Source of the DNA: a virus
Lineage: Duplodnaviria > Caudoviricetes
Reading direction: 5' to 3' (one strand)
IMG/VR virus record: IMGVR_UViG_3300046820_001270
Location: 64,001-128,000 of that record
DNA length: 64,000 bases
Part shown: piece by piece, positions 3,087 through 18,085 of the stretch
Layout: every line of letters begins with the position of its first letter
Position numbering within the stretch: position 1 is the stretch's first letter
The notes under the pieces: model-generated
What the model was told of the DNA's origin: nothing
The model's input: only the letters and a program-made list of their open reading frames with translations
Database searches by the model: none
Translations under genes and position numbers: made by a program

Positions 3087-3607
3087 AAATTTTAATAATC
3101 GCATTACCAAGAACAGGTTCTACAAGTTTAGGGGAACTGCAGACCAAAAAACACAATATAAAAAAATATTTATTTGAACCATTTAATCCAAAAAATACTG
3201 AAAGATATAATTCTAACGAAAGTAATGTTGTAGTTAAAACACTTGTATTTCAAATTTTAGAGGACATTAAAGAAGAAAATAGAATTGAATGGTTGATAAA
3301 TTTAACAAAAGAATTTGATGAGGTTATTTTATTGACAAGAAAAGATTTAGTAGCTTGTGGAGAAAGTTGGGCGTATTTAAATTATTTTCACGAAACAAAA
3401 AAGTTTATGTATTATGAGAATTATTTATGGAAATCAACTCCATATGATACATCAGCATATAATCAAATACTTTCATTTAATGAAGATTTAAAATTTATTT
3501 CCAAAAGTATAAATGTACCTATAACATATTATGAAGATATTTTTGACATAAACGGAGAAGGAAGATTAAGAAAAGGTAATAGAACAAATACATTAAATAT
3601 TATATAA
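3083..3607 (+). CDS. sulfotransferase-like protein (paralog of preceding gene)
   Basis: PRTGSTS loop, FEPFN, LTRKD, YYEDIF shared with upstream gene. Confidence 0.6.
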   Translation: MKILIIALPRTGSTSLGELQTKKHNIKKYLFEPFNPKNTERYNSNESNVVVKTLVFQILEDIKEENRIEWLINLTKEFDEVILLTRKDLVACGESWAYLNYFHETKKFMYYENYLWKSTPYDTSAYNQILSFNEDLKFISKSINVPITYYEDIFDINGEGRLRKGNRTNTLNII

Positions 3608-4671
3608 TGATTAATTTAAATGAATATGTTTGTACCGTACCGTTTACATCAATGGAAATACATGATGAATCATATTTTCTTTGTTGTGCTAGTTGGTTAA
3701 CAAAATACTTACCGAAAAATCAGCCAATGGATGGTATGTGGAATTCGGAAGAATCTATTGATATAAGAAAATCGGTAATGGATGGAACATATCGTAATTG
3801 TGATAAAACACAATGTCCATATCTGTCACAGTTAATTAACTTAAATAATAAGAGTTTAGGACCTATTAAACATATAAATGAATTACCCGAAGACATAAAA
3901 AAATATGTAAACGAACAAAATGGTATTATGGAAACTGGACCGAAAATAGTTCACATGTCATTTGATAGAAGTTGTAATTTAAAATGTCCATCATGTAGAA
4001 TAGAATCTATAATGGCAAATGGTGAAAAATTAGAAAAAATAGATATAACAATTGAAAAAATGGAGGAGTTATATTCCAACTCGATTGAAACAATTTATTG
4101 TTCTGGGACGGCGGATCCATTTGCTTCTAAATCGTATAGAAATTATCTTAAAAATTTTAATTTTAAAAAATATCCAAATTTAAAATATATTCATCTACAT
4201 ACAAATGCAACTTTATGGGATGAGAAAATGTGGGAAGAAATGAAAAATATACATCCATATGTTAAAACTTGTGAAATAAGTATAGATGCCGCGAGAAAAG
4301 AAACATATGAAAATGTAACTAGATTAGGTGGAAATTGGGATAAATTAATATCAAATTTAAAATTTATATCAACAATAAAAAGTTTAACAAGTGTTAAGTG
4401 TTCATTTGTTGTTCAACAAAGCAATTATACCGAAATGACTGAATTTTTAGAACTAATACATGATATTTTTGGTATGAAAACAAAAGTGTTTTTTGGTAAA
4501 ATAACAAATTGGGGAACTTTTAGTGATGGACAATATAAATTATTAAAAGTGTGGGACAATAGTCATCCCGAGTTTAATCTATTTTTAGAAGAGTTTAAAA
4601 AAGTGGCATTAAATCCATTTGTATTTCATAATATGTATGAATTATTGGACAATAAAAAGTCTTTAATATAA
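3607..4671 (+). CDS. radical SAM protein with N-terminal SPASM/twitch-like Cys cluster
   Basis: CNLKCPSC (CxxxCxxC), GTADPF, TNAT, SIDA; N-terminal C...CC...C...C. Confidence 0.9.
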   Translation: MINLNEYVCTVPFTSMEIHDESYFLCCASWLTKYLPKNQPMDGMWNSEESIDIRKSVMDGTYRNCDKTQCPYLSQLINLNNKSLGPIKHINELPEDIKKYVNEQNGIMETGPKIVHMSFDRSCNLKCPSCRIESIMANGEKLEKIDITIEKMEELYSNSIETIYCSGTADPFASKSYRNYLKNFNFKKYPNLKYIHLHTNATLWDEKMWEEMKNIHPYVKTCEISIDAARKETYENVTRLGGNWDKLISNLKFISTIKSLTSVKCSFVVQQSNYTEMTEFLELIHDIFGMKTKVFFGKITNWGTFSDGQYKLLKVWDNSHPEFNLFLEEFKKVALNPFVFHNMYELLDNKKSLI

Positions 4672-4707
4672 ATTGACATTTTAATATATTTTCATTATAT
4701 TATACCA

Positions 4708-7700
4708 ATGAAAATACTTGCACATACATGTTTTATCGGAGTCACAGGATATGCTAACCACGCAAAGTCCTTTTTTTGTGCTCTGAACAAATACCATACA
4801 GTTAAAGTTAGGAACTCAACAATCGGAAGTGGTTGGAAGGGGATGAATAACACACCTCACGATGATGAACCATATATCACCGATGAGATGAAGGATATGT
4901 TAATTCTACAAACCCTAATCAATGGTGATGGTAGTAGATCTCATTTACCTATGTATGGTTATAAGAATGATTTTAAACCTGATGTTCATATTGTATTGGT
5001 GGATATGAACAACTATTATTTTCACGAGAATTACGATGGATATAAGATAGCATATAACGTTTGGGAATCAACACGTTATCCGCAAGATTTCTTTAAAAGA
5101 TTAATGTACTTTGATGAAGTATGGGTACCAACACAATGGCAATTTGATTGTTTGGTTGAACAGGGTTATCCTAAGTCTAAAATATCAATAGTTCCTGAGG
5201 GAGTTGATGTGGGGACATTTAAACCATTAAGTAAGATACCAAAGAAGGACAAATTTAGGTTCTTACATTTTGGTAGATGGGATTATAGAAAAGGAACTAC
5301 AGAGGTTTTAAGGACATTTGGTGAGGTTTTTAAAGGTAGAACTGATGTTGAATTAATCGCGTCAGTTGAAAACCCATACGCGTATGACGGAATTAAAACA
5401 ACCGAAGAAAGAGTTAAGTACCATAATATTAACGACGAGAATATAAAGTTTATTAAGTTCACACCAAGAGAGGAATATGTGAAGTATCTACAAGAAGGTG
5501 ACGTGTTCGTTACTTGTGCCCGTAGTGAAGGGTGGAACTTACCGTTGATTGAATCGATGGCTTGCGGAACACCATCATTATATTCAAATTGGGGAGGTCA
5601 GTTAGAATTTGCGGAAGGTAACGGTGTTCCCGTTAAGATAGATGGTTTAAGACCCGCAAATGTAGAACATAAACATTTTCCTGGTGAATATTGTGAACCA
5701 GATTGGAAAGATTTGGGAGAACAAATGTTAAATGTAATGAATGATTATAAAAAGTTTAAATCATTCGCAATAGAAGAATCAAAAGAAATTCATATAGATT
5801 TCAATTGGGATAAAATAGCAAAAACAGCATCAAATATATTAATGGAAAAGAAAACAATTAGAGAAGATGATTTTTATAAATCAGGAAAATTCTACACAGA
5901 TGTAGATGTATTAGAAAATTTAGGAGACATTAAAGACTACCAAGGAGGAACACTTGAAGTGGCGAATAAGTTTGGTTGGCCAAGAGCAATATATCATGAG
6001 ATTTATAATTTAATGGATTACTATAAGCGTCCAAATAATGACAAAAGAATTTACGATGGTGATGTTGTTGTTGATTTAGGTGGGAATATAGGAATTTTTA
6101 ATAGATGGGCATATAGTCAAGGTGCGTCTAAAGTAATTTCATTTGAACCAGATAGAAGATATTTTGAACTATTATCTAAAAATGCAGATCCCCGTTCTAT
6201 TTTATATAATGGAGCCGTTGCCGACGAGGTTGGTGAGATGGTTCTTTCTGAAACAGGTCATCTCGGTGGATCTACATTACTTGAAACAGAAGAAATGACA
6301 AACACATACACAGTTAAAACATATACATTAAATTATTTGTTTGAAACTGGTGTAGTAAATAAAATAGATTTTTTAAAGATGGATATTGAAGGTGCCGAGC
6401 ATCATGCGTTTTTAGGAATATCAGATGAAAATTTATTAAAAGTTAGGAACATCTCAATGGAGTATCATCATAATTTATTGGGACACAATGTTGAACTGAG
6501 AGAAAGTTTAATTCAAAGAATGTCAAGATTAGGATTTAGTCATTATACTCTGTTTATGGGCGGAAACGATAATTTACAGATGTTATATTTTGAAAGAAAA
6601 GAAAAATCAATTAGAAAATCTAATATTCATTTTGTTGATGGTCCATTTGCTGAAGTGAACGAAGACGTGGAACATTTATACAATGTTCAATTTATTGATG
6701 GAGACACCGGTAAAATTGAATATGAAACGAATATCAAGAGTAATCATTGGACAAGAGCATCTAAAAAATATTATGTTAATTGGATTGTAAAAATTAAAGG
6801 TATTGATAATGATTTTTATAGAGAAGAGAAATTTAATCCACAAGGACAAAGAATTATGATTTGTTTTGAATCAAAATCGTTAGGTGATAGTTTAGCTTGG
6901 ATCCCATATGTAGAAGAATTTAGAGTTAAAAATAATTGCCAAGTTATTTGTTCAACATTTAAAAATGATTTATTTAAAGGACAATACCCTGAAATTGAGT
7001 TTGTTGAACCTGGAACGGGAGTTAATAATATATATGGTTTATTTAGATTGGGGTTATTTCAAGACGATGAAAGAAAAATAAAATATGATAAACACCCATC
7101 TAACCCAAGGGTAGAACCTTTAGGTAAAATGGCTTCAGACATATTAGGACTTGAATTTGAGGAGATAAGACCAAAATTACCAAAATTTAACAAAAAGAAA
7201 ACAAAGAGAGTTTGTATAGCCATACATTCAACTGCTCAGGCAAAATATTGGAATAATCCAATAGGATGGCAACAGGTTGTTACCCATTTAAAGAAAAAGG
7301 GATATGAAGTTAGATTATTATCAAGGGAAGAGGATGGTTATATGGGAAATAAAAATCCACAGGGTGTTAAACAACAAAAACCAGGACCGATTGAGAAAGT
7401 TATTGAAGTTCTAGAAGAATCTGAGTTGTTTATAGGTATTGGAAGTGGTTTAAGTTGGTTGGCATGGTCAGTAGGTGTACCATGTATTATTATATCGGGA
7501 TTTAGTGAAGAATATAGTGAACCTATGTCGGGAGTATCAAGACTTATTAATAAGGATGTGTGTCATGGATGTTGGAATGTATACGATTTTAATCCGGGGG
7601 ATTGGAATTGGTGCCCCGTTCATAAAGACACTAAACGACAATTCGAATGTTCAAAATCAATCAAAGGGGACGATGTAATAAAAGAAATCGAAAAACTTCT

Positions 7701-7710
7701 ACCAATTTAG
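4708..7710 (+). CDS. three-domain fusion: GT4 glycosyltransferase + FkbM-type methyltransferase + AAH/TibC-like autotransporter heptosyltransferase
   Basis: GT4 EGWNLPLIESMACG; FkbM DLGGNIG...FEP...KMDIEGAE; BAHT-like FESKSLGDSLAW...GIGSGLSWLAW and four-Cys CHGC...WCP...FEC. Confidence 0.85.
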   Translation: MKILAHTCFIGVTGYANHAKSFFCALNKYHTVKVRNSTIGSGWKGMNNTPHDDEPYITDEMKDMLILQTLINGDGSRSHLPMYGYKNDFKPDVHIVLVDMNNYYFHENYDGYKIAYNVWESTRYPQDFFKRLMYFDEVWVPTQWQFDCLVEQGYPKSKISIVPEGVDVGTFKPLSKIPKKDKFRFLHFGRWDYRKGTTEVLRTFGEVFKGRTDVELIASVENPYAYDGIKTTEERVKYHNINDENIKFIKFTPREEYVKYLQEGDVFVTCARSEGWNLPLIESMACGTPSLYSNWGGQLEFAEGNGVPVKIDGLRPANVEHKHFPGEYCEPDWKDLGEQMLNVMNDYKKFKSFAIEESKEIHIDFNWDKIAKTASNILMEKKTIREDDFYKSGKFYTDVDVLENLGDIKDYQGGTLEVANKFGWPRAIYHEIYNLMDYYKRPNNDKRIYDGDVVVDLGGNIGIFNRWAYSQGASKVISFEPDRRYFELLSKNADPRSILYNGAVADEVGEMVLSETGHLGGSTLLETEEMTNTYTVKTYTLNYLFETGVVNKIDFLKMDIEGAEHHAFLGISDENLLKVRNISMEYHHNLLGHNVELRESLIQRMSRLGFSHYTLFMGGNDNLQMLYFERKEKSIRKSNIHFVDGPFAEVNEDVEHLYNVQFIDGDTGKIEYETNIKSNHWTRASKKYYVNWIVKIKGIDNDFYREEKFNPQGQRIMICFESKSLGDSLAWIPYVEEFRVKNNCQVICSTFKNDLFKGQYPEIEFVEPGTGVNNIYGLFRLGLFQDDERKIKYDKHPSNPRVEPLGKMASDILGLEFEEIRPKLPKFNKKKTKRVCIAIHSTAQAKYWNNPIGWQQVVTHLKKKGYEVRLLSREEDGYMGNKNPQGVKQQKPGPIEKVIEVLEESELFIGIGSGLSWLAWSVGVPCIIISGFSEEYSEPMSGVSRLINKDVCHGCWNVYDFNPGDWNWCPVHKDTKRQFECSKSIKGDDVIKEIEKLLPI

Positions 7711-7771: not shown

Positions 7772-9670
7772 ATGAAAATATTTGACGCAAACATCTCGGG
7801 ATCCCTAAACGTATCGGGCGCAGCTCGTTTCTTCGGTGATCTTACGGTAGACGGAACAATAAATGCTGCGATTAGTGGTACATCCACAAACGCACTATCC
7901 CTAAACACAACGGGTTCTGCTCGTTTCGCTACCACAGGTAGTAACCTATTCACAGCAAACCAAACAATTAGCGGATCTATAATCCCATCTGTTAATAATG
8001 CTTACGATTTGGGTGATGCGACACATTGGTGGAAGGACATCTATGTATCTACAGGATCTATCTTTATTGGTGGTATAAAAGCTATCAGTACAAACACTGA
8101 TGGTACAATCCAAATAGGTACTCAAGTTGTACAAACTTCAGCAAGTTTAGCATCAGTTGGTCTACCAGTTCCTCCAACAGGTTCTGCAGGATCAAGTCAA
8201 AGTACATTAGTAGGTAGTCAAAATATTACAGGTAGTCAATCTATCACTGGTAGTATGTCAGTAAGTGGTAGTATGGTTGTAACAGGTTCTTTATTTATTA
8301 ACGGAACCTCATATACTGCGGCTTCTTCAGGAACTTCAGGAACTTCAGGAACTTCAGGTTCTTCAGGTTCTAGTGGATCTAACGGTTCATCAGGAACTTC
8401 AGGATCTAACGGAACAAATGGTTCTTCAGGAACTAGTGGTTCTAACGGTACTGACGGTTCTTCAGGTTCTAACGGAACAAATGGTTCTTCAGGAACTAGT
8501 GGATCTAACGGAACAAATGGTTCTTCAGGAACTAGTGGATCTAACGGAACAAATGGTTCTTCAGGTACTTCAGTAACCGTTTCAGGTACAAACAATGTAC
8601 TTGGTAAATTCAGTTCAGGAACTATGGTTAACTCAACAATAACTGACGATGGTACGACAGTTACTATTGGAGGTAATTTAACGGTTAATGGTACAACCAC
8701 TTCAGTCAATTCAAATACAGTTAATATTGGTGACAATATTTTAATTCTTAATTCAGATGAAGCGGGTGTTCCATCACAAAATGGTGGTATTGAAATTGAA
8801 AGAGGAACATCTACAAACGCAAGTTTAATATGGGACGAAACAACTGATGTGTGGGAAGTTGGTTTAGCGGGTGCTGAACTTGAAATTGCAACCATTAGTG
8901 GAACACAAACACTTACTAACAAAACAATAAATGGTTCACAATTAGTTGACTTGTCGGTTGCAAATGGTAAATTGACAAACTCATCAGTAACCGTTTCAGC
9001 AGGAACGGGTATGAGTGGAGGTGGTGCGGTATCATTAGGTGGTACTGTAACATTAACAAATGCGGGTGTAACGTCAATCACAACAAATACAGGTTTAAGT
9101 TCAAACGTAAGTGCGACAGGTGCGGTTACAATCACAAATACAATAACCAATAATAACCAATTAACCAATGGTGCTGGATATCTTACAACGGCTGTAACTT
9201 CAGCGGTTGGAGGTACGGGTGTTGGTGTGAGTTCGGGAACAGGAGCGGTTACATTCTCAATCGGTCAAGCGGTTGCAACATCATCAAACGTTCAATTTAA
9301 CTCATTGGGTGTAGGAACGGCAGGTCCTGGAACAACAGGTTTAATCAGAGCAACAAATGACGTTATCGCTTACTTCTCATCAGATGAGAGATTAAAGGAA
9401 AACTTTGAAAATATCCCTAATTCTTTAGATAAGTTAAAACAAATTAACGGTTATTCATTTGATTGGATCCCTATGGAAGGTATTCACGAAAATGAAGGTC
9501 ACGATATCGGTGTTAAAGCACAAGAAATTGAAGCTGTTTTACCTGAAATTGTTACAACAAGAGAAAACGGATATAAGGCGGTTAAATATGATAAATTAGT
9601 TGCTTTATTGATTGAAACAAATAAAGAATTATTAAATCGTATTGAAGCTTTAGAAGCTAAAATAAAATAA
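7772..9670 (+). CDS. tail fibre with C-terminal peptidase S74 intramolecular chaperone
   Basis: Gly/Ser/Thr-rich body; SSDERLKEN cleavage motif, IGVKAQEIE, VKYDKL and terminal coiled coil. Confidence 0.9.
   Translation: MKIFDANISGSLNVSGAARFFGDLTVDGTINAAISGTSTNALSLNTTGSARFATTGSNLFTANQTISGSIIPSVNNAYDLGDATHWWKDIYVSTGSIFIGGIKAISTNTDGTIQIGTQVVQTSASLASVGLPVPPTGSAGSSQSTLVGSQNITGSQSITGSMSVSGSMVVTGSLFINGTSYTAASSGTSGTSGTSGSSGSSGSNGSSGTSGSNGTNGSSGTSGSNGTDGSSGSNGTNGSSGTSGSNGTNGSSGTSGSNGTNGSSGTSVTVSGTNNVLGKFSSGTMVNSTITDDGTTVTIGGNLTVNGTTTSVNSNTVNIGDNILILNSDEAGVPSQNGGIEIERGTSTNASLIWDETTDVWEVGLAGAELEIATISGTQTLTNKTINGSQLVDLSVANGKLTNSSVTVSAGTGMSGGGAVSLGGTVTLTNAGVTSITTNTGLSSNVSATGAVTITNTITNNNQLTNGAGYLTTAVTSAVGGTGVGVSSGTGAVTFSIGQAVATSSNVQFNSLGVGTAGPGTTGLIRATNDVIAYFSSDERLKENFENIPNSLDKLKQINGYSFDWIPMEGIHENEGHDIGVKAQEIEAVLPEIVTTRENGYKAVKYDKLVALLIETNKELLNRIEALEAKIK
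8324..8566 (+). repeat. coding tandem repeat: 27 X-Y-Gly triplets (9-bp units, 36-bp higher-order unit)
   Basis: SSG/TSG/SNG/TNG triplets; two exact adjacent 36-bp copies ggaacaaatggttcttcaggaactagtggatctaac near 8474-8545. Confidence 0.95.
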
Positions 9671-10004: not shown

Positions 10005-10448
10005 ATGAATATAACGTATAAAAAATATCCCTCAAAATACGAATTACAGTACGTTAAATGGAATGGAATTAACTTTGATAGAGAAAGATTAATTAACTTC
10101 ATTAAACGTCTTAAATTAACGTATTTTTTGTCATTTATACCCTATTACAGAAAGGAACATCAAATACTTACAGAAATATTAAACACATACGATAAAGTTC
10201 GTATTCAAGGTCTTTTAAATAATGATGAAGATATTTTAAGAAGATGTTTTATTGAAAAATGGGCAAGAATTGCGTCAACTGACATTTTATTAACAAATGT
10301 TTATTCAAGATCAACATTTACAACGATATTTAATTTACCAATCAAAGATTACCAACTACTTATGAAAAGAGTGGAAGAAATGGTTGAGGCCGGAAGAAAT
10401 TTAACATATCAAAGTATAATAATTACAGACAATACACCTGGAACATGA
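10005..10448 (+). CDS. hypothetical protein
   Basis: 147-aa ORF with ATGA overlap to next gene. Confidence 0.8.
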   Translation: MNITYKKYPSKYELQYVKWNGINFDRERLINFIKRLKLTYFLSFIPYYRKEHQILTEILNTYDKVRIQGLLNNDEDILRRCFIEKWARIASTDILLTNVYSRSTFTTIFNLPIKDYQLLMKRVEEMVEAGRNLTYQSIIITDNTPGT

Positions 10449-11080
10449 GTAAATCAATCAACAACAGTTCAATGTGGGAAATAAAACCACTTAAGTTATC
10501 AATATTAGTACCAACAAGAGATATGGTACATTCACAATTTTCATATAGTTTAACTCAATTATTTAACACAACGAGAGAGGCGGGAATTGATGTTTATTTA
10601 TTTTTTGATTCTAGTACAATATTATTAAATCAAAGAAATAATCTTATTAAGAAGGCAATGGAAGTAAAATCCGATTATGTTCTTTGGTTAGATAGTGATA
10701 TGATGTTCCCACCAACCACAGCATTACGTCTTTTAGAACACAATAAGGACATCGTCGCATGTAACTATATGAAACGTTCAAAGCCTCTTAAACCTGTTGC
10801 ATATAGGGATCTAAATGATTGGGATAGTTGGGTACCGATGGAAATACATGACGAACTTGTTAAAGTGGAGGGAGTAGGTATGGGATGTATGTTAATGAAA
10901 TTAGATATGTTCGATAAATTAGAAAAACCATATTTTGAGTTTAGATATAAAGAAGACACCGAAGATTACTTCGGAGAAGACTTTATTTTATTGGGTAAGT
11001 TAAGAGAATTAGGATATGAAGTGTTTATTGATACATACTTAAGTATGATGGTTAAACACGTCGGCAATTACGCCTTTTGA
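10445..11080 (+). CDS. GT-A fold (GT2-like) glycosyltransferase
   Basis: ILVPTR, LWLDSD (DxD), GMGCML, GEDF. Confidence 0.8.
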   Translation: MSKSINNSSMWEIKPLKLSILVPTRDMVHSQFSYSLTQLFNTTREAGIDVYLFFDSSTILLNQRNNLIKKAMEVKSDYVLWLDSDMMFPPTTALRLLEHNKDIVACNYMKRSKPLKPVAYRDLNDWDSWVPMEIHDELVKVEGVGMGCMLMKLDMFDKLEKPYFEFRYKEDTEDYFGEDFILLGKLRELGYEVFIDTYLSMMVKHVGNYAF

Positions 11081-12180
11081 TCCTTATCTATTATCAACAC
11101 AGTTATATTACCATTTTCATAAACACCAGGTCCATAATCATCAAGAGATACTCTCAATGCGTTGACCATGTTAAAATCATCCTGATTAAAGTTATCGGTA
11201 ACAAATACTTTAATATCAACATCATTAACATCTTCAAATTTCTTAGTTAAATTGTAACGAGTAGATCGTTGTTCCTTCTCAACATATTCCGTTGGGAACT
11301 CATCAATCTCAATCTTATCGAAGAATGGTTCTAATAATTCAATATGTTTGGTACTACTTAATTTAACACCAACAATTTTCTTAACGTATGTAAAGTTATC
11401 TGTTGTTTGATAATCCATCGCGTTAAACATTGGAATACTAATCCCCCATTTTCTTATAAAGTTTCTAATGGAATGAGCTTCAATTGTTCCACGTACATCT
11501 TTCATTTCATCACTGAACCTTGATGTCTGCGAAACAAAATGATAGGTAATTGCAGAATCACAAGTTTTTAATTCATACCCTTTTAGTTTCGCACGGATTA
11601 AAAAGTCATCATCTTCACAAAAACATGGAACAAAACTAAATCCATCAAAACCACCTAAGTCAATAAATGTTTTCTTATATGCCGACATAAAGAAGACCGC
11701 ACCATCATGTAGTGTATCAGTATCTTTCCATTTTTGAATGTAATTATCAAAATGAGTTTGATCAAAATTATCAAACCCACTACCCAAATCTAATAATACT
11801 TTACCAGGTCTTGAATGACCTTTAAAAATAGGAGGTTCAATTGTTGTGTAGGATAAGATCATATTCTCAGTTAATAGTCTTTCTATTGCCTCTAAGAAAC
11901 CTTCACCAATAACCATATCGTTATGGATAAGAACAATCTTTTCCGTATCAACAAGATCAATACCCGCGTTATATGTTTCTGAGAATGTTAAACGATCATC
12001 ATCGTGGAAGAAAGATAAGTTTTCATCTTCTAATGATTCTAACCATTCTTTAGTACCGTCACTTGATCCACCACTACTAATTACTAACGGTGCATCGGGA
12101 TATAACACACGTAATCTTTTATAACATTCCGTTGTTAGATCTAATTTATTATAGACAGCCAATACAAAGCTTATATTCAT
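11068..12180 (-). CDS. GT2 glycosyltransferase
   Basis: FVLAVYN, YNAG, HND, LGGFD...EDDD, YHFVS. Confidence 0.85.
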   Translation of the reverse strand: MNISFVLAVYNKLDLTTECYKRLRVLYPDAPLVISSGGSSDGTKEWLESLEDENLSFFHDDDRLTFSETYNAGIDLVDTEKIVLIHNDMVIGEGFLEAIERLLTENMILSYTTIEPPIFKGHSRPGKVLLDLGSGFDNFDQTHFDNYIQKWKDTDTLHDGAVFFMSAYKKTFIDLGGFDGFSFVPCFCEDDDFLIRAKLKGYELKTCDSAITYHFVSQTSRFSDEMKDVRGTIEAHSIRNFIRKWGISIPMFNAMDYQTTDNFTYVKKIVGVKLSSTKHIELLEPFFDKIEIDEFPTEYVEKEQRSTRYNLTKKFEDVNDVDIKVFVTDNFNQDDFNMVNALRVSLDDYGPGVYENGNITVLIIDKDQKA

Positions 12181-12216
12181 TTTATTTTATTTTATATGTA
12201 ATAACTTATTTATATT

Positions 12217-13002
12217 TTAAAATTTTAATACTTGTTTCCATAAATTAAAAATATCATCATTTGTTAAATTAGAAACTTCATGTAGTGTTTGATCACAACC
12301 AAAAAACTTGGTATTTGTATAAAAACATTCATCTTTTACTAAACATGCAACTTCACCAATCGATGAATGATATACTCTACCCACACTATCATACATTTCT
12401 TGTTTAGAATTGGTATAACCCACAAATTCAACATAAGGATGATTTTCATATTTTTTTATATTTTTATTATAATACCCATCCATCACAATTTTACCACAAA
12501 TATAAATTTTTGTACATCCGTCCTTCAACGCTCTTTCAATAGATTGATGAGTTTGTTTTCTTTCTTCCACCGTACCAATAACACCAGCAACTAAATCTAA
12601 TTCAGATTTTTCTTTTGATACTAACAATTCTTTAGGGTTTGGTATTGTAGTGTATGGACCATTATATCTTGAGTGATAGTTTCTATGTTCTTCATGACTA
12701 AAAACTAACGTATCCCAATAATTTGGTATGTCTGCAACCTCAAACCACCATTTTTCATGACAACATAATACAACACTTTTCACATTTGGTCTTTTTTCTA
12801 ATTTTAAAAAATGTGTTAATAAAATGTCATCTTTATCTAATTTTAAATTACTTAACTTATCTGATTTACATTTATTTAAATGAAAATCATGAGGACCATA
12901 AAAAATTGTCTTGACCCCTCTTTCGTTAAACATATTTGTTAAATTGATAAGAATAGTTGTTGACCCTCCTTCGGCCGAATATCCCGAAATAATTTTTACC
13001 AT
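12217..13002 (-). CDS. GT-B (GT4-like) glycosyltransferase, compact
   Basis: GGS N-terminal loop, IPNP, GTVEERK, FVGY. Confidence 0.55.
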   Translation of the reverse strand: MVKIISGYSAEGGSTTILINLTNMFNERGVKTIFYGPHDFHLNKCKSDKLSNLKLDKDDILLTHFLKLEKRPNVKSVVLCCHEKWWFEVADIPNYWDTLVFSHEEHRNYHSRYNGPYTTIPNPKELLVSKEKSELDLVAGVIGTVEERKQTHQSIERALKDGCTKIYICGKIVMDGYYNKNIKKYENHPYVEFVGYTNSKQEMYDSVGRVYHSSIGEVACLVKDECFYTNTKFFGCDQTLHEVSNLTNDDIFNLWKQVLKF

Positions 13003-13550
13003 ATTCTTTTTAAAATTGTTAAACCATTATTATTATAAAATCTTTCCGCAATAATCCAATGAGGATTATTATTCATAAATTCCTCAATTGCCGGCCATAA
13101 ACCAATAGTATCTCCATTCATACCACTAAATTCAAATGATGTAGTATCATGAAAAATAATGTATTTTCTTGATTTATTACCGTGTAATGTTAATTCACCT
13201 TTAACTTGTTTATATGTGTGATCGGTATCTAAAAATAATAAATCAGTTTCTTCAATTTCAATATCTAAAGTACTACCTAAAATAAAATTAAAGTCAATTT
13301 CATTTTTTTTACCAAGTTCAATTACGTCATTTACATTAATTCCCCAATTTTCTAATGGATCAATATCATAGGAAATTAATTTTTTAGGTAGACCCATCAT
13401 AAACGCAATCGTTGAAACTAACCATCTAACCCCCATTTCTGTTATATGATCACAATCTTCGGCATATTTTTTTAAAGTTGGTAAATGCTCATTAATATCT
13501 GATACCAAATTACACCTATATTCGTAGTTATCTATTAAATCTTGTGTCAT
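12996..13550 (-). CDS. class I SAM-dependent methyltransferase (Methyltransf_24-like)
   Basis: TEMGVR, DLLFLDTDHTY, IIFHDT. Confidence 0.8.
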   Translation of the reverse strand: MTQDLIDNYEYRCNLVSDINEHLPTLKKYAEDCDHITEMGVRWLVSTIAFMMGLPKKLISYDIDPLENWGINVNDVIELGKKNEIDFNFILGSTLDIEIEETDLLFLDTDHTYKQVKGELTLHGNKSRKYIIFHDTTSFEFSGMNGDTIGLWPAIEEFMNNNPHWIIAERFYNNNGLTILKRIW

Positions 13551-14161
13551 ACTTTATAATAATTTTCTTTTAAATCATTTTCATTCACATAATTTATTTT
13601 TTTCATAATTACTTGATAACCATTATGAACTATTTCTAAATATTTGTGATAACCATGATAGAACGCATCGGCACCTGTTTTAACTTGTAAGTATTGTTCT
13701 TGTTCAAGTCCACCACCATAATCATCGAATATAATATAACCATTATTTTTCAAACAGTAAAATGCATTTACCGCATCTTCTAAAACATATTTACACATAT
13801 GATTACCATCTATGTAAACAAAGTCTAAAAACTCTTTAGTTTCACCATTATGGTTAAATGTTTTAAAACTATCGGCAGATTCACCTAATTGATATGTTAC
13901 TTTATCTTTATATGGTTTAATGTTATTTTCAATGAATTCATTTGTATTAATATCCATAATGTAATGATGAGATCCTTCTTTTTTACAGAATTTATCTAAG
14001 ATATAAACTGATGAACCACCATATAGTGCACCAATTTCTAAACATACTCTTGGTTCATCACCATAGTTAGGCAAATAATGATCCCAAGAATCGACATGAT
14101 TTAAAAAGAAATAACGTTCTCCTTCTGGATATTTAAAATGTTCTGGATATTGATAACTCAT
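13547..14161 (-). CDS. class I SAM-dependent methyltransferase (Methyltransf_24-like)
   Basis: LEIGALYGGS, FVYIDGNH, GYIIFDDY. Confidence 0.85.
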   Translation of the reverse strand: MSYQYPEHFKYPEGERYFFLNHVDSWDHYLPNYGDEPRVCLEIGALYGGSSVYILDKFCKKEGSHHYIMDINTNEFIENNIKPYKDKVTYQLGESADSFKTFNHNGETKEFLDFVYIDGNHMCKYVLEDAVNAFYCLKNNGYIIFDDYGGGLEQEQYLQVKTGADAFYHGYHKYLEIVHNGYQVIMKKINYVNENDLKENYYKV

Positions 14162-14778
14162 AATGAATTGTATAAATTGTTTTGTTTTTCTTGACGTTCA
14201 ATTGTCTTATGGTGCTGAATACAATATTCTTCGTCATTCGGTAATGAAGAAAACTTTTGACCACCTATTATTCTTTCATGTACCTTACCATACCAAGTCA
14301 TACCTTTACGATATATTCGTCCTTGAGCATCGGGAAAATTAACCCACCCATTTTCATTAACTCTCCAACCCCATTTTTTTACATGTTCTTCCGTCAAACC
14401 GTTAACAGTATTAATACGAGGAACAAATATTAAATCTACCTTTGGATTTAATTCTAAAATCTCGTGAAGATTTTTAACCATATATTCACTAATCATTTCG
14501 TCAGCGTCTAATTGATAGATGTAATCACCGGTACAATACTCATTCAATTTATTTTTCCAATCGGCAAAGTTTCCTTCAAAACCAAAACCTCTCCATGTTT
14601 GTACATTCGGTTTAATATTGTATGGTAAAAGAAAATCTAATATTTCAGGATTACCGTTCTTCTGATCATATAAAATTACTATTTCATCATTGTATCTTTT
14701 ATGTTCCAATAAAAACGGAACTAATCTTTTTATTTCCTTTAGTTCATTACAAACCGTAATTGCAAAACTTATTTTCAT
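14158..14778 (-). CDS. GT2 glycosyltransferase
   Basis: FAITVCNE, NFADWKN, LDADE, VHERI. Confidence 0.85.
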   Translation of the reverse strand: MKISFAITVCNELKEIKRLVPFLLEHKRYNDEIVILYDQKNGNPEILDFLLPYNIKPNVQTWRGFGFEGNFADWKNKLNEYCTGDYIYQLDADEMISEYMVKNLHEILELNPKVDLIFVPRINTVNGLTEEHVKKWGWRVNENGWVNFPDAQGRIYRKGMTWYGKVHERIIGGQKFSSLPNDEEYCIQHHKTIERQEKQNNLYNSL

Positions 14779-14779
14779 A

Positions 14780-15022
14780 TTATGCTCTTTGTCCTCCGTT
14801 TATTCTTCCCGTTAATATATTTATTACTTCGTTGTCAATTTCTTCCACAATTTGTTCCGACATTAATCTTGTTAATTCTGCCTCAGCATCAATTGAGTAA
14901 ACAGTATTTAAATCATCAACCAACTCAGGTCTCCATTGAGCACGTAGTGTTCTAACGATATTCTGAATACCTTCCGATTGAATTGTTATCCCATGAAAAA
15001 ATCTAAACTCTCTAACTCCCAT
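14780..15022 (-). CDS. small protein: FRFFHG tag + fragment resembling T4 gp23-type major capsid protein
   Basis: Start moved to ATG 15022. RTLRAQWRPELVDDL...SIDAEAELTRLMSEQIVEEIDNEVI matches my recollection of gp23 R-x-LKA-x-W/Y-x-x-ELAQDL...DAEAEL...EI-x-x-EI-x-x-E. Confidence 0.7.
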   Translation of the reverse strand: MGVREFRFFHGITIQSEGIQNIVRTLRAQWRPELVDDLNTVYSIDAEAELTRLMSEQIVEEIDNEVINILTGRINGGQRA

Positions 15023-15023
15023 A

Positions 15024-15254
15024 TTATTCTCTTTCTCTTGCGAATAATTTAAATACTCTACCATTATCATTAAATGTCATTTCAGTATTACTCGTTGGAC
15101 TTAAACGAATACTACAATCATTTGGACCATGGGCAAAAACGACTGGTTCGTCATCACCAAATTGAAAACAAAATTCAACATTTGATGGTTCAAATGAGAC
15201 CGGAGTAAAACATAATGTAGGTGTTTCATCACCTTTAAAAAATTTGAAGTTCAT
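15024..15254 (-). CDS. hypothetical protein with N-terminal FKFFKG tag
   Basis: MNFKFFKG start; abuts neighbouring genes. Confidence 0.75.
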   Translation of the reverse strand: MNFKFFKGDETPTLCFTPVSFEPSNVEFCFQFGDDEPVVFAHGPNDCSIRLSPTSNTEMTFNDNGRVFKLFARERE

Positions 15255-16516
15255 TATTTAACTTTATTTAATTTAGGTAATATTAATTTAGTTTGTTGTG
15301 GAGCAGGTTGTACAACAACTAAGTATGGTTTTAAAATTTCTTGAAAACGTTCTTTCATTTTTTCTAAAGAAAAGTTTTCTGAGTTCTGATCTTTTAATAA
15401 AATACTATTTGATGAAAATCTTGAATAATCATCTCTAACTAATTTCATTACTTCCACTACTTCATTATAATTTGCGGTGAACCACTTAGATCCTTTAATT
15501 ATGAATTGATCAATTGCACTATCATCAACATCGGTTAATTTACCACCAATCATAATACTTTTATCTGTCGGTAAAAAATCTTTTTGTCCTGACCAATTGG
15601 ACGCAATTACTGGTTTACCTGACATTGTGAATTCCAATAACGGTCTACCAAATCCCTCACCTTTAGTAATTGATATCATTGACTTAATCTTTTTATGATT
15701 ATATAAATCATTCATTTCTTTATTTGTTAAATCACCAAACAATAAATAAATAGATGGAGGGTTAGGTGTCTCACCGACTATATCTTTAATTCTTTTAATA
15801 AACACCTCACGTTCTTTAATTGAGAAACTTGATGATGATGTTTTTAAAACTAAAGCGGGAGATTTTTCATCGTCTTTAAATGCTTCAACGAAACACTTAA
15901 TTAACATACCAATATCTTTTCTATCTTGACCTACGTTTCCCTTTAACCAATGACCAACAAATAAAAATGCGAAGTCTTCTTTAACATTTAATTTAAATTT
16001 AGGATTAATAGTATCGTTATAGATTTTAGTATCAACACCTTCAAATAACACTTCAATTGGTTTTGTTATTTTATATTGATTAGTTAATTCATTTGTTGTT
16101 TTATTTCTTTCATCATAAACTGTCGATAATAAAACATTTTTAGAAAAATTGGAAGTGGCAATTATTAAATCCATTTGATTACAACCGTCTATCCAATCCT
16201 TAGGTGCTACAGTTGTTTCAATTCCTGCGGTGATACCAATATTAAACTTACCATATCTTTTAAATTCATTCGGTACGGTTACTTGTATATAGATATCAGG
16301 TAAACCGTCAAATTTAGATACAATATTACTTTCAATCCATTTGTGGAATATGTTATCAGACTCTAATGCTGTCATTGGAGTATTTCCCCACATACAACTA
16401 TCAATCTTAATATCAAATAAATTCATTTGATAAAGTGCTTCTAATAAATCTCTTGAGTGTGAACCATATCCACTTCTTGTTTTAACTGGTCCTCTAAATA
16501 ATATTGTTGGTTTCAT
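15254..16516 (-). CDS. GT4 glycosyltransferase
   Basis: SGYG, GEGFGRPLLEF, NWSG; similar to N-terminal domain of 4708-7710. Confidence 0.85.
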   Translation of the reverse strand: MKPTILFRGPVKTRSGYGSHSRDLLEALYQMNLFDIKIDSCMWGNTPMTALESDNIFHKWIESNIVSKFDGLPDIYIQVTVPNEFKRYGKFNIGITAGIETTVAPKDWIDGCNQMDLIIATSNFSKNVLLSTVYDERNKTTNELTNQYKITKPIEVLFEGVDTKIYNDTINPKFKLNVKEDFAFLFVGHWLKGNVGQDRKDIGMLIKCFVEAFKDDEKSPALVLKTSSSSFSIKEREVFIKRIKDIVGETPNPPSIYLLFGDLTNKEMNDLYNHKKIKSMISITKGEGFGRPLLEFTMSGKPVIASNWSGQKDFLPTDKSIMIGGKLTDVDDSAIDQFIIKGSKWFTANYNEVVEVMKLVRDDYSRFSSNSILLKDQNSENFSLEKMKERFQEILKPYLVVVQPAPQQTKLILPKLNKVK

Positions 16517-17886
16517 TAAATTACTTTATATAAATTAAATCTTTCACGTGGTGTAAAATTCTTTATTGTTTTTTCTATTCCTTCACTCATAGAGTCACAC
16601 ATAACTTTTGACGATAAGTTATTGATTGCCCACTCTCTTCCTACTTGACCATTCTCTTTTCTTTTTTCTTTACCTAACAAATACATTTCATTAATTGCAT
16701 TAGCAACTTCATTATTATTAACTCTATCATCATAGATATACGGTGTCAATGGAGATCCGTTTATGTTTGTTGCTGCCGGCCATACAGGTTTAACCCACAC
16801 ACCATGATCTGGTTTAACAAGTGAATTACTTAAAGTTTCGATAACAATGTATTGGTCGGGAGTTAAAAATTTACCATCATACCCAAACCCACATTGGTCT
16901 TGTAAACCACCTGTTACACTTACAATGATGGGTGTTCCCGCCATCATACTTTCCGCCGTACCTAAACCAAATCCTTCATTATTTGCAATGTTAATCGTAC
17001 AATCGGCAATGTTATATAGTTTATTTAAGAGATCATTTTCAATTTTGGTCGTTGAAAAAACGATATCATAATTTGGACATACCTTATCTTTAACAGCGTA
17101 TAAGTCTGTACCATTATTATCGATAGGAGCGGTGTGCATAACCAATACACACTTTTTAGATTGTTCTTTACTTAATTTATCACAGAATAATTTAAATGAT
17201 TCTATAACGTCCGCAGGTTGTTTTCTACGAATATTTCTGTTATTAAAAAATAAAACAAAATCGTATTCTTTACCCTCAAATAAATCCTTTTTAACTTGAG
17301 TTAATTCTTTTTCATCTAATGGTTTAAAAATATTTTCATTAATACCGTGAGGAACATAACTAATTTGCCAATCTTCCAATGGTTTACGAATACCATCTTC
17401 AATCTTACCAACACGATTAACAATACCGTATGTCAATTTAGAAATACAACCTAACCAATCACAACTTTCATAGTAATCTTTATTGTATAATGGATCGGGT
17501 ACGTTATCCCAAATGTGATAATATAAAATTGGGACTTGTTGTCTTATCTCATGTTCAGAATCATATAACCATTGCCAATAGTGAGGATCAGTAAAATGTA
17601 AGATAGCATCTATTTTCATTTCGCTTAATATTTTCCTCAACATTACAATATCACCATATGAATTATATGGTATAATTTTTAATTCGGCATCAGGAACACC
17701 AGTTTTTTCTCTAATATCAGTATCAACATCCACAAATTTACCAGCTTCATTATGATTAATACCCGCACCTAATTGAACCCAATTAAAACGATCAACGGTA
17801 CCCATCACAAACTCTCTTGACATTGTGGCGATACCCGATGTCATTCGTAAATCGTCTGATAGTAATAATATTCTTGGTTTACCCAT
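16516..17886 (-). CDS. GT4 glycosyltransferase
   Basis: Start moved to ATG 17886; TSGIA, NRNIRRK, NEGFGLGTAESMMAGTP. Confidence 0.85.
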   Translation of the reverse strand: MGKPRILLLSDDLRMTSGIATMSREFVMGTVDRFNWVQLGAGINHNEAGKFVDVDTDIREKTGVPDAELKIIPYNSYGDIVMLRKILSEMKIDAILHFTDPHYWQWLYDSEHEIRQQVPILYYHIWDNVPDPLYNKDYYESCDWLGCISKLTYGIVNRVGKIEDGIRKPLEDWQISYVPHGINENIFKPLDEKELTQVKKDLFEGKEYDFVLFFNNRNIRRKQPADVIESFKLFCDKLSKEQSKKCVLVMHTAPIDNNGTDLYAVKDKVCPNYDIVFSTTKIENDLLNKLYNIADCTINIANNEGFGLGTAESMMAGTPIIVSVTGGLQDQCGFGYDGKFLTPDQYIVIETLSNSLVKPDHGVWVKPVWPAATNINGSPLTPYIYDDRVNNNEVANAINEMYLLGKEKRKENGQVGREWAINNLSSKVMCDSMSEGIEKTIKNFTPRERFNLYKVI

Positions 17887-17887
17887 A

Positions 17888-18085
17888 TTAATATTTTGAT
17901 CCACTCACAGCTAAATCTGTGTAGTTATTTATTTTGCTTCTAAATGATTCATCTTTAACATAAAGATCTAATGTACGATTAACTAACTTTTGTAGGTTAA
18001 TATTACCATCAATTGCATTTATTTTAAATTTTCTGTAAACGTCTTCCAATACATGGACACTCGTTAATTTTTTTTCTACTTTCAT
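17888..18085 (-). CDS. small protein, possible ribbon-helix-helix DNA-binding fold
   Basis: KLTSVHV strand then two helices (YRKFKINA, LQKLVNRTLDLY). Confidence 0.6.
   Translation of the reverse strand: MKVEKKLTSVHVLEDVYRKFKINAIDGNINLQKLVNRTLDLYVKDESFRSKINNYTDLAVSGSKY

What the first reader, a model, noticed from the sequence alone, without database searches (positions are those of the whole stretch)
4708..7710. Phage-encoded AAH/TibC-type protein heptosyltransferase fused to GT4 and FkbM domains
Seen: a 1000-aa protein with GT4, FkbM methyltransferase and a C-terminal domain carrying FESKSLGD, GIGSGLSWL and a four-Cys C-x2-C-x13-C-x11-C cluster. Established: AAH/TibC (BAHT family) are iron-containing enzymes that O-heptosylate Ser residues in repeats of the autotransporter adhesins AIDA-I and TibA. 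Inference: a single-polypeptide assembly line that attaches, extends and O-methylates a glycan on virion proteins. No heptose biosynthesis genes are visible in this window, so the donor is host-derived, encoded elsewhere or a different sugar.
Basis: partly seen in the sequence, partly recalled or inferred. Interest (0 to 1): 0.75.

Follow-up and report, generated by a model that had tools for sequence, protein, structure and literature searches.

The report
Phage three-enzyme fibre sugar-coating protein
A 334-kb uncultured lake phage encodes one 1000-residue protein that joins two sugar-adding enzymes and a methyl-adding enzyme; its last part is a true relative of the bacterial adhesin-glycosylating enzymes TibC/Aah, and it most likely sugar-coats the serine-rich, collagen-like tail fibre encoded next door, though no experiment has tested this.

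Summary
ORF 4708-7710 (+) encodes a 1000-aa protein with three parts:
- GT4 glycosyltransferase, about residues 1-385.
- FkbM methyltransferase, 445-616.
- A C-terminal TibC/Aah-type (BAHT) domain, 641-1000. It scores 281 bits on NCBIfam TIGR04414 (cut-off 200) and E=1.6e-55 to TibC. The AF2 model has TM 0.89 to 4RAP against about 0.5 to LPS heptosyltransferases.

The catalytic Asp, the phosphate and sugar contacts and all four metal-binding Cys are kept.

The domain nevertheless belongs to a separate, well-supported branch. This branch replaces TibC's adenine-contacting Arg-286 with an aliphatic residue. It also has a 3-residue shorter 'thumb' and a 2-residue shorter Cys finger.

This branch, and no sampled autotransporter-type locus, sits beside proline-free Gly-Ser/Thr repeat proteins. 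I found such a neighbour in 54 of 84 phage loci and 17 of 21 bacterial loci. Here the partner is the tail fibre at 7772-9670.

In a complete 335-kb relative the GT4-FkbM and BAHT parts are separate neighbouring genes, so the fusion links them functionally.

The sugar is unproven. The window has no heptose genes and three near-complete relatives have no gmhA, but HldE/HldD-like genes follow the BAHT gene in several other phages.

I found no paper on phage BAHTs. This scan has already noted the same theme on other DNA, in at least 132 genomes.

The parts
4708..7710 (+). Whole ORF: 1000-aa GT4-FkbM-BAHT fusion protein (P0001)
   Evidence: The same protein is called as a gene on JGI contig Ga0451736_0000008 (334,429 bp) at 102418-105420.
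4708..5862 (+). GT4 (GT-B, retaining-type) glycosyltransferase domain, residues about 1-385. It carries the GRWDYRKG motif and E-x7-E at 274-282.
   Evidence: Pfam PF00534/PF13692/PF20706 and PHROG 2170. It is 70% identical to the GT4 module of a two-domain GT4-BAHT protein, P0116. The motifs can be read.
6040..6555 (+). FkbM-family SAM-dependent methyltransferase domain, residues about 445-616, with SAM motif VVDLGGNIG at 454-462
   Evidence: PF05050, 57.8 bits; TIGR01444, 81 bits; PHROG 8156, E=2e-23.
6628..7707 (+). BAHT (TibC/Aah-like) protein O-glycosyltransferase domain, residues 641-1000: N-terminal beta-barrel, GT-B catalytic core and Cys finger
   Evidence: TIGR04414, 281 bits; TibC, E=1.6e-55; AF2 pLDDT 96.3; Foldseek TM 0.89 to 4rap.
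6886..6888 (+). Codon of Asp-727, the equivalent of TibC catalytic base Asp-110 (in FESKSLGD)
   Evidence: Alignment with TibC. This position is D in 121 of 121 homologues.
7228..7251 (+). STAQAKYW motif, carrying Thr-842 and Lys-846 (TibC Thr-226 and Lys-230, the beta-phosphate contacts)
7333..7350 (+). DGYMGN: the shortened 'thumb' segment. Tip residues Tyr-878/Met-879 stand in place of TibC Phe-265/Val-266.
   Evidence: The segment is modelled as a loop, not a hairpin.
7399..7401 (+). Codon of Val-898, at the position of TibC Arg-286 (the adenine N1 contact). This is the main departure from Aah/TibC.
   Evidence: The position is aliphatic (a few Thr/Ala) throughout the phage/methanotroph branch. 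It is Arg in 41 of 43 autotransporter-type sequences.
7561..7650 (+). Four-Cys finger, Cys-952/955/969/981 (TibC Cys-339/342/358/370), with spacing x2, x13, x11
7772..9670 (+). Probable substrate: a 632-aa tail fibre that starts 61 nt after the enzyme gene's stop. The mature part is 33% Ser+Thr, the most Ser/Thr-rich ORF in the window.
   Evidence: Pfam Collagen + Peptidase_S74; tail-fibre PHROGs; composition.
8330..8572 (+). Proline-free collagen-like run: 27 Gly-X-Y triplets built only from Ser, Thr, Asn and one Asp, encoded by tandem DNA repeats
9380..9553 (+). Peptidase_S74 intramolecular chaperone domain of the fibre. The SDERLKE self-cleavage motif starts at residue 537.
10445..17904 (.). 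Adjacent glycan-tailoring island on both strands: an Anp1/GT2-like gene, two GT2 genes, a Methyltransf_24 gene and two GT1/GT4 genes. It probably supplies further steps of the same glycan.

Best explanation
The gene encodes a cytoplasmic, three-activity glycosylation enzyme of a giant freshwater phage.

Shown: the C-terminal domain is a structurally complete member of the TibC/Aah (BAHT) family of protein O-glycosyltransferases. It belongs to a distinct branch which, in phages and in bacteria alike, is genetically tied to proline-free Gly-Ser/Thr-X repeat (collagen-like) proteins.

Inferred:
- During late infection the BAHT domain puts the first sugar on Ser/Thr hydroxyls of the fibre encoded immediately downstream. 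It uses Asp-727 as the base and a nucleotide-activated sugar held by Thr-842, Lys-846 and Trp-917.
- The GT4 domain adds a second sugar.
- The FkbM domain O-methylates the glycan, probably as a cap.
- The neighbouring GT/MT island may elaborate the glycan further.
- The donor is most likely an ADP-heptose-type sugar taken from the host. This is the weakest step.
- The likely benefit is stabilising and shielding a proline-free triple helix, and tuning what the fibre surface presents.
For: Family and fold:
- TIGR04414 scores 281 bits against a cut-off of 200. TibC matches at E=1.6e-55. The AF2 model has pLDDT 96.3, and Foldseek gives TM 0.87-0.89 to 4rap/4rb4 against about 0.5 for LPS GT9 enzymes.
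- The functional residues named in PMC4358343 are Asp-110, Thr-226, Lys-230, Trp-305, Cys-339/342/358/370 and Phe-368. All are conserved here and in 120-121 of 121 homologues.

Linkage to the fibre:
- Of 84 IMG/VR loci, 54 have a Pro-free GXY ORF within 8 kb and 40 have one within 500 bp. In 35 of these it lies directly downstream on the same strand, 48-71 bp away. The 64-kb window has only one such ORF, and it is that neighbour.
- 17 of 21 bacterial loci of the same branch (methanotrophs, Polaromonas) have a secreted GTS-repeat protein within 160 bp, in other gene orders. None of about 45 autotransporter-type loci do.
- The two branches separate at 100% SH-aLRT.

The three domains working together:
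- In a complete 335-kb relative, GT4+FkbM form a 911-aa protein. BAHT is in a separate 707-aa protein just before the fibre.
- GT4-BAHT two-domain forms exist.
- Cultured Microcystis phage Mel-JY01 has the same domain order beside a Ser-rich structural protein.

Donor:
- Genes whose best NCBIfam hits are the HldE kinase domain, the HldE adenylyltransferase domain and the ADP-heptose 6-epimerase lie right after the BAHT gene in loci L006/L008 and L054. They also occur elsewhere in the 335-kb relative.

Precedents:
- Chlorovirus A064R is a viral GT-GT-methyltransferase that builds and methyl-caps a capsid glycan (PMC9614988).
Against: - There are no biochemical data for any member of this branch.
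- TibC Arg-286 contacts adenine N1, and its Ala mutant loses activity. It is Val here and aliphatic, occasionally Thr/Ala, across the branch, so ADP specificity cannot be assumed.
- No GmhA, GmhB, HldE or HldD homologue lies in the window. No gmhA was found in three 97-100% complete relatives. The HldE/HldD-like hits elsewhere are all below NCBIfam cut-offs. The closest relative's nucleotidyltransferase looks more like TagD.
- Linkage is not universal. 30 of 84 phage loci show no GXY ORF within 8 kb, though at least four of these are cut short. Mel-JY01's neighbour is Ser-rich but not GXY.
- Many of the loci are related phages, so the counts are not independent events.
- The acceptor residues could lie in non-collagen parts of the fibre.
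Confidence: 0.55

Rival explanations
1. The enzyme and the mechanism are the same, but the first sugar is not a heptose or is not ADP-activated. This BAHT branch would have switched donor, for example to a hexose, or to a sugar built by the phage's own island upstream of the window.
For: Arg-286, the residue said to explain ADP specificity in TibC, is lost throughout the branch. Position 300, which sets heptose stereoselectivity, is Gly or Ser. Branch-specific changes sit next to the phosphate-binding motif (Q224 to H840). The window has no heptose genes and complete relatives have no gmhA.
Against: The heptose O4 contact Trp-305 and the phosphate contacts are invariant. Genes best matching HldE and HldD sit directly behind BAHT genes of this branch in several phages. 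LPS heptosyltransferases of GT9 bind ADP without an equivalent Arg (own knowledge, not tested).
Confidence: 0.35
2. The enzyme glycosylates a different acceptor: another virion protein, a host envelope protein, or a host glycolipid (for example to block superinfection). Its position beside the fibre would reflect only a general 'host-recognition' gene neighbourhood.
For: 30 of 84 related loci lack a GXY neighbour. The gene lies in a large patchwork island of tailoring enzymes. Phage glycosyltransferases that alter host surfaces are well known (own knowledge).
Against: The pairing with Gly-Ser/Thr repeat proteins is kept in at least five different gene arrangements, in both phages and bacteria, and is absent from the sister branch. 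BAHTs are soluble protein-modifying enzymes, and no membrane segment or signal peptide is evident in the sequence. The fibre is the most Ser/Thr-rich ORF in 64 kb.
Confidence: 0.15
3. The BAHT domain is a catalytically dead scaffold or fibre-binding module, and only GT4 and FkbM are active.
For: Arg-286 is lost, and R286A cripples TibC.
Against: The catalytic Asp, Thr/Lys/Trp and all four Cys are invariant over 121 homologues and about 70 tree rows at 40-65% identity. That is the pattern expected of an active enzyme under purifying selection.
Confidence: 0.04

Closest known systems
TibC (ETEC H10407; PDB 4RAP/4RB4) and Aah: bacterial autotransporter heptosyltransferases (BAHT family, NCBIfam TIGR04414, CAZy GT9)
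   Same: The fold is the same end to end: beta-barrel, GT-B core and four-Cys finger, with TM 0.89 and 33% identity. The catalytic Asp, the Thr/Lys phosphate contacts and the Trp sugar contact match. The gene is placed directly before a repetitive, Ser-rich surface-protein gene.
   Different: - It is the C-terminal third of a 1000-aa fusion in a phage.
- It belongs to a sister branch (100% SH-aLRT).
- Arg-286 becomes Val. The thumb is 3 residues shorter and has no modelled hairpin. The Cys finger is 2 residues shorter. Q224H, D256S and F355W are branch signatures.
- The partner is a collagen-like fibre, not a beta-helical autotransporter.
- The dodecamer, the iron and the ADP-heptose donor are untested.
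Stand-alone BAHT homologues of methanotrophs and Polaromonas, next to secreted or lipoprotein (Gly-Thr-Ser)n proteins (uncharacterised; loci L092-L115)
   Same: They belong to the same branch at 43-48% identity. They share the aliphatic residue at 286 and the same short S.EG..YMGN thumb segment. They are likewise paired with proline-free GXY repeats.
   Different: They are single-domain 375-440 aa proteins on bacterial chromosomes. Their partners are small exported proteins, not fibres. None carries fused GT4 or FkbM.
Chlorovirus PBCV-1 A064R (two glycosyltransferase domains plus a methyltransferase)
   Same: It is a single virus-encoded polypeptide with two sugar-transferring domains and one methyltransferase. 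It builds and methyl-caps a glycan on a virion protein (PMC9614988).
   Different: The folds and order are unrelated (GT-A-like rhamnosyltransferases, MT last). It extends an existing N-glycan rather than priming O-glycosylation. The host is a eukaryotic alga.
BclA of the Bacillus anthracis exosporium
   Same: It is a trimeric collagen-like repeat region of variable length that is densely O-glycosylated. Its terminal sugar, anthrose, is O-methylated (PMC10050317 and PMC6222408).
   Different: The repeats contain Pro, and the glycosyltransferases are not BAHTs. It is a spore surface protein, not a virion protein.
Microcystis phage Mel-JY01 protein WWT39291 (PP395634, annotated 'methyltransferase FkbM')
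   Same: It has the same GT4...FkbM-BAHT order, at 45% and 36% identity over the two halves. Its TIGR04414 score is 317 bits. It has the same short thumb and an aliphatic residue at 286. It lies next to a Ser-rich structural protein, and the phage is cultured.
   Different: It is 1226 aa, with an extra insert of about 250 residues. Its neighbour has no GXY run. The host is a cyanobacterium.

Membership tests
BAHT (TibC/Aah) protein O-heptosyltransferases | Scores above the curated cut-off of the equivalog model TIGR04414 over its full length | tested here: met
   281 bits against a cut-off of 200, covering model positions 28-374 of 374.
BAHT (TibC/Aah) protein O-heptosyltransferases | Protomer fold: N-terminal beta-barrel plus a GT-B catalytic domain with an atypical N-lobe | tested here: met
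   AF2 pLDDT 96.3. Foldseek TM 0.87-0.89 and rmsd 2.6-2.9 over about 372 columns to 4rap/4rb4. The next-best hits are GT9 LPS enzymes at TM about 0.5.
BAHT (TibC/Aah) protein O-heptosyltransferases | Catalytic base Asp-110 and the donor contacts Thr-226, Lys-230 and Trp-305 | tested here: met
   The equivalents are D727, T842, K846 and W917. They are conserved in 120-121 of 121 homologues.
BAHT (TibC/Aah) protein O-heptosyltransferases | Arg-286 contacting adenine N1, the stated basis of ADP-sugar specificity | tested here: not met
   It is Val-898 here. It is I/V/L/M (a few T/A) in the whole phage/methanotroph branch and Arg in 41 of 43 autotransporter-type sequences.
BAHT (TibC/Aah) protein O-heptosyltransferases | Four-Cys 'iron finger' (Cys-339/342/358/370) | tested here: met
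   Cys-952/955/969/981 are present and invariant in homologues, with the middle spacer x13 instead of x15. The identity of the metal cannot be tested here.
BAHT (TibC/Aah) protein O-heptosyltransferases | Beta-hairpin thumb with a hydrophobic tip (Phe-265/Val-266) that links dimers into the dodecamer | tested here: inconclusive
   The segment is 16 residues rather than 19, the tip is Tyr-878/Met-879 (nearly invariant YMGN), and the model shows a loop with no strands.
BAHT (TibC/Aah) protein O-heptosyltransferases | Dodecameric ring assembly | not testable with these tools
   This needs SEC-MALS or cryo-EM.
BAHT (TibC/Aah) protein O-heptosyltransferases | Partner gene is an AIDA-type autotransporter adhesin | tested here: not met
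   The neighbour is a collagen-like fibre with a Peptidase_S74 domain. E. coli Aah, TibC and EhaJ sit before AIDA-I, TibA and EhaJ.
BAHT (TibC/Aah) protein O-heptosyltransferases | Uses ADP-glycero-manno-heptose as the donor | not testable with these tools
   Only indirect evidence exists. HldE/HldD-like genes lie beside relatives' BAHT genes. None lie in the window, and complete relatives have no gmhA.
GT4 glycosyltransferases (Pfam Glycos_transf_1) | Domain score above the gathering cut-off, plus the E-x7-E motif | tested here: met
   PF00534 scores 48 bits against 26.4. E274-x7-E282 is present.
FkbM-family methyltransferases | Domain score above the cut-off, plus the glycine-rich SAM motif | tested here: met
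   PF05050 scores 57.8 bits against 22.7, and TIGR01444 scores 81 bits against 37.7. VVDLGGNIG lies at 454-462.

The most novel reading that the evidence does not exclude
This enzyme stands for an undescribed BAHT subfamily, widespread in large phages and present in some Proteobacteria. Its dedicated substrates would be proline-free (Gly-Ser/Thr-X)n collagen-like helices, with the attached and often methyl-capped glycans taking the place of proline/hydroxyproline in stabilising and shielding the triple helix. The subfamily recognises its nucleotide-sugar differently from TibC and may use another donor.
Probability: 0.45. Interest if true: 0.75.

Novelty: new variant of a known kind. Interest (0 to 1): 0.6.

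Why it matters
BAHTs are known only as partners of virulence autotransporters in Proteobacteria. This finding places the fold in a second setting that appears to be much larger. The full-library search gave 1475 clusters at 50% identity, and at least 547 IMG/VR stretches encode a relative, most of them as multi-domain fusions in big phages.

If the fibre is the substrate, three things follow:
- Tail-fibre O-glycosylation would be a common, phage-encoded trait of large freshwater phages. That bears on host recognition, on resistance to proteases and grazers, and on how fibre genes should be read in metagenomes.
- It would explain how collagen-like helices without proline can be stable.
- The fused and split forms of GT4, FkbM and BAHT give a ready-made dissection of a three-step pathway, and a cultured phage (Microcystis phage Mel-JY01) carries an orthologous enzyme for direct tests.

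Tried and rejected
- **Homodimer prediction.** I folded two copies of the BAHT domain (residues 640-1000, alignment A2). The result was no verdict, so it says nothing either way about oligomerisation.
- **Whole-genome search of the window's own 334-kb contig for heptose genes.** This was not possible: no genome is held, and the JGI record cannot be searched. A word look-up with a relative's HldE-like kinase found look-alikes only in other genomes. That is inconclusive at the expected identity of about 60%.
- **Nucleotide search against GenBank phages.** Megablast of window 40-60 kb found no match.
- **PHROGs.** No family covers the BAHT domain.
- **Promoter and terminator scan around the gene.** The number of promoter-like sites equals the shuffled expectation, so the good-looking TTGACA-17-TATATT at 4673-4701 carries no weight.
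- **N-terminal domain of the common 707-aa BAHT proteins.** It shows no similarity to this protein's GT4 domain.
- **Literature.** Searches on phage plus TibC/heptosyltransferase, collagen-like fibre glycosylation, and Mel-JY01 found no description of phage BAHTs.
- **Generic LPS heptosyltransferase.** I considered and rejected this because of the TM gap (0.89 against 0.5) and the Cys finger.
- **Prophage or bacterial origin of the window.** I rejected this because the contig's relatives are CheckV-complete viral genomes of 324-336 kb and the neighbourhood encodes a fibre and an endolysin.
Full report
**What is there.** The window comes from a 334,429-bp JGI metagenome contig, where this gene lies at 102418-105420. 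ORF 4708-7710 (+) encodes exactly 1000 residues.
- FESKSLGD at 720-727
- GIGSGLSWL at 910-918
- C-x2-C-x13-C-x11-C at 952-981

Profile searches give three domains:
- A GT4 glycosyltransferase, about residues 1-385. PF00534 scores 48 bits against a cut-off of 26.4, and PHROG 2170 gives E=4e-37. The GRWDYRKG and E-x7-E motifs are present.
- An FkbM methyltransferase, 445-616. PF05050 scores 57.8 bits and TIGR01444 scores 81 bits. The SAM motif is VVDLGGNIG.
- A C-terminal domain that passes NCBIfam's equivalog model for Aah/TibC. TIGR04414 scores 281 bits against a cut-off of 200, full length.

Against the PDB the only strong sequence match is TibC (4rap/4rb4), at E=1.6e-55 over residues 656-997.

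**Is it really TibC-like rather than a generic GT9?** I built a 65-row alignment of diverse homologues and folded the domain. The model has pLDDT 96.3 and pTM 0.92. Foldseek against the PDB puts all TibC chains on top, at E about 1e-38, TM 0.87-0.89 and rmsd 2.6-2.9 over about 372 columns. The next hits are LPS heptosyltransferases (WaaC, WaaF, 3tov) at TM about 0.5.

Using the TibC paper (PMC4358343) and a TibC sequence fetched from an ETEC genome, I mapped the functional residues:

| TibC residue | Role | Here |
|---|---|---|
| Asp-110 | catalytic base | D727 |
| Thr-226, Lys-230 | beta-phosphate contacts | T842, K846 |
| Trp-305 | heptose O4 contact | W917 |
| Phe-368 | hydrophobic cluster at the thumb contact | F979 |
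| Cys-339/342/358/370 | metal-binding finger | C952/955/969/981 |

All are conserved in 120-121 of 121 metagenomic homologues.

**Where it departs from Aah/TibC**:
- Arg-286, which contacts adenine N1 and whose Ala mutant is inactive, is Val-898.
- The thumb is three residues shorter, with tip Tyr-Met instead of Phe-Val, and is modelled as a loop.
- The Cys finger is two residues shorter.
- Q224, D256 and F355 are replaced by His, Ser and Trp.

These characters co-vary with phylogeny. In a 117-row tree a branch with 100% SH-aLRT separates two groups:
- 43 autotransporter-type sequences (E. coli TibC, Aah and EhaJ; Burkholderiaceae; Selenomonadales). 41 have Arg-286 and all have the 19-residue thumb.
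- 74 sequences comprising all 51 viral rows, the window, and a bacterial subclade of methanotrophs, Polaromonas and relatives. Almost all have an aliphatic residue at 286 (a few Thr/Ala) and the 16-residue thumb; two long-branch outliers depart, one of them keeping the longer thumb.

The domain is therefore a family member by model score and by fold, but it belongs to a distinct subfamily.

**The neighbour and the likely substrate.**
- The next gene (7772-9670) starts 61 nt downstream. It encodes a 632-aa tail fibre.
- The fibre has a Pfam Collagen domain and a Peptidase_S74 self-cleaving chaperone, and it hits many tail-fibre PHROGs.
- It contains 27 uninterrupted Gly-X-Y triplets made only of Ser, Thr, Asn and one Asp, encoded by tandem repeats.
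- Its mature part is 33% Ser+Thr, the highest of 53 ORFs in the window.

I tested whether this pairing is more than local chance.
- In 84 IMG/VR loci encoding relatives, 54 have a proline-free GXY ORF within 8 kb and 40 have one within 500 bp. In 35 it lies directly downstream on the same strand. Five show other arrangements.
- At least four of the 30 'negatives' are cut off just after the gene.
- A scan of bacterial genomes found stand-alone BAHTs of the same branch in Methylobacter, Methylomicrobium, Polaromonas and others. 17 of 21 such loci have a small signal-peptide or lipoprotein (Gly-Thr-Ser)n protein within 160 bp, either upstream on the same strand or downstream on the opposite strand.
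- None of the roughly 45 autotransporter-type loci has one. Many of those sit before 1200-2200-aa Ser/Thr/Gly-rich proteins instead.

The pairing thus survives several rearrangements and the phage-bacterium divide. That is the best available evidence that Gly-Ser/Thr repeats are what this branch modifies. It is still correlation, and many of the loci are related to each other.

**Do the three domains work together?**
- The GT4 module is 70% identical to that of two-domain GT4-BAHT proteins.
- A CheckV-complete 335,630-bp relative (L016) has the modules split. Its order is: a stand-alone 376-aa BAHT, a 911-aa GT4+FkbM protein, a small methyltransferase, a 707-aa BAHT protein, and then the collagen/S74 fibre.
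- The window and its 85-86% relatives carry the compact fusion.
- Cultured Microcystis phage Mel-JY01 has the same order in a 1226-aa protein annotated only as 'methyltransferase FkbM', next to a Ser-rich structural protein.
- Other fusion partners of the BAHT domain are class-I methyltransferases, GT2, DUF3431 and tandem GT9 copies.

Split-versus-fused genes argue for one pathway: prime (BAHT), extend (GT4), methylate (FkbM). The adjacent island of GT2/GT4/methyltransferase genes (10445-17904) could add further steps. This order of reactions is inference.

**The donor sugar.**
- In the window, tblastn with E. coli GmhA, GmhB, HldE and HldD finds nothing.
- The gmhA model finds nothing in ten relatives' records, three of them 97-100% complete.
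- On the other hand, genes best matching the HldE kinase domain (115-129 bits), the HldE adenylyltransferase domain (93-94 bits) and the ADP-heptose 6-epimerase (190 bits) lie directly behind the BAHT gene in L006/L008 and L054. They also occur elsewhere in the 335-kb relative. All are below the curated cut-offs.
- The closest relative's small nucleotidyltransferase looks more like TagD.

With Arg-286 lost, I put a heptose-type donor at roughly even odds. I could not search the window's own full genome.

**Abundance and prior knowledge.**
- The word-indexed search found 3606 proteins at E<=1e-3. Several carry JGI's automatic name 'autotransporter strand-loop-strand O-heptosyltransferase'.
- The exhaustive search found 1475 clusters at 50% identity, 742 of them at E<=1e-30, with lengths of 373-2033 aa among the 150 best listed.
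- IMG/VR holds at least 547 encoding stretches.
- PHROGs has no family for the domain.
- I found no paper that describes a phage BAHT or a BAHT acting on collagen-like repeats.
- The nearest functional precedents are chlorovirus A064R, a GT-GT-methyltransferase acting on a capsid glycan (PMC9614988), and the glycosylated collagen-like region of BclA (PMC10050317).
- This scan's own notes already record the same theme in at least 132 genomes. I re-tested its main claims independently here, and they held. One note's description of the domain as 'thumbless' is better stated here as a shortened thumb with a conserved YMGN tip.

**Verdict.** The finding is a new variant of a known enzyme family in a new biological setting. 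The family assignment is secure. The fibre as substrate is likely. The sugar, the metal and the oligomeric state remain open.

Noticed in passing
L016:242-2442 (IMG/VR 3300042391_000634, 335,630 bp): In the complete relative, a second, stand-alone 376-aa BAHT gene directly follows the radical-SAM gene. That radical-SAM gene corresponds to window 3607-4671. So some phages carry two BAHT copies, one tied to the radical-SAM/tailoring operon and one tied to the fibre.
   Followed up: partly
L006:5131-6272 and L054:6512-8057: HldE-adenylyltransferase-like, HldE-kinase-like and HldD-epimerase-like genes sit immediately downstream of BAHT genes in other phage lineages. No gmhA or gmhB is detected in those loci. 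This looks like a partial ADP-heptose-type cassette that presumably draws on host intermediates.
   Followed up: partly
L093:6917-7777, L095:6784-7773, L092:9124-9429, L115:9163-10056: Methanotroph and Polaromonas genomes encode small exported or lipoprotein (Gly-Thr-Ser)n proteins next to stand-alone BAHTs. Some have duplicated Cys-containing C-terminal modules. They are candidate bacterial collagen-like glycoproteins of unknown role.
   Followed up: partly
L001:739-2298 (-) (Microcystis phage Mel-JY01, PP395634): A 519-aa 'hypothetical protein' consists almost wholly of Pro/Glu/Val/Leu repeats (units such as PEVPRVPLVPELPPVPEEPLV). It lies about 2.5 kb upstream of the phage's GT4-FkbM-BAHT gene.
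   Followed up: no
P0005, P0006, P0007 (metagenome proteins, 924-1147 aa): These proteins carry three GT9/BAHT-like stretches in tandem. One also has a Methyltransf_24 domain. They may be multi-BAHT 'assembly lines'.
   Followed up: no
L124, L139, L145, L151, L155, L161, L168 (Selenomonadales and other bacterial loci): Autotransporter-type BAHTs (Arg-286 and the long thumb are kept) lie directly before 1150-2230-aa ORFs with about 40% Ser/Thr/Gly, in Negativicutes and uncultured Proteobacteria. These ORFs are probable heptosylated adhesins outside the Enterobacteria and Burkholderia.
   Followed up: no
window:9753-10448: Two small ORFs (71 and 147 aa) lie between the fibre and the next glycosyltransferase. 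They have no Pfam or PHROG hit. The 147-aa ORF is conserved in position in L003 and L016.
   Followed up: no
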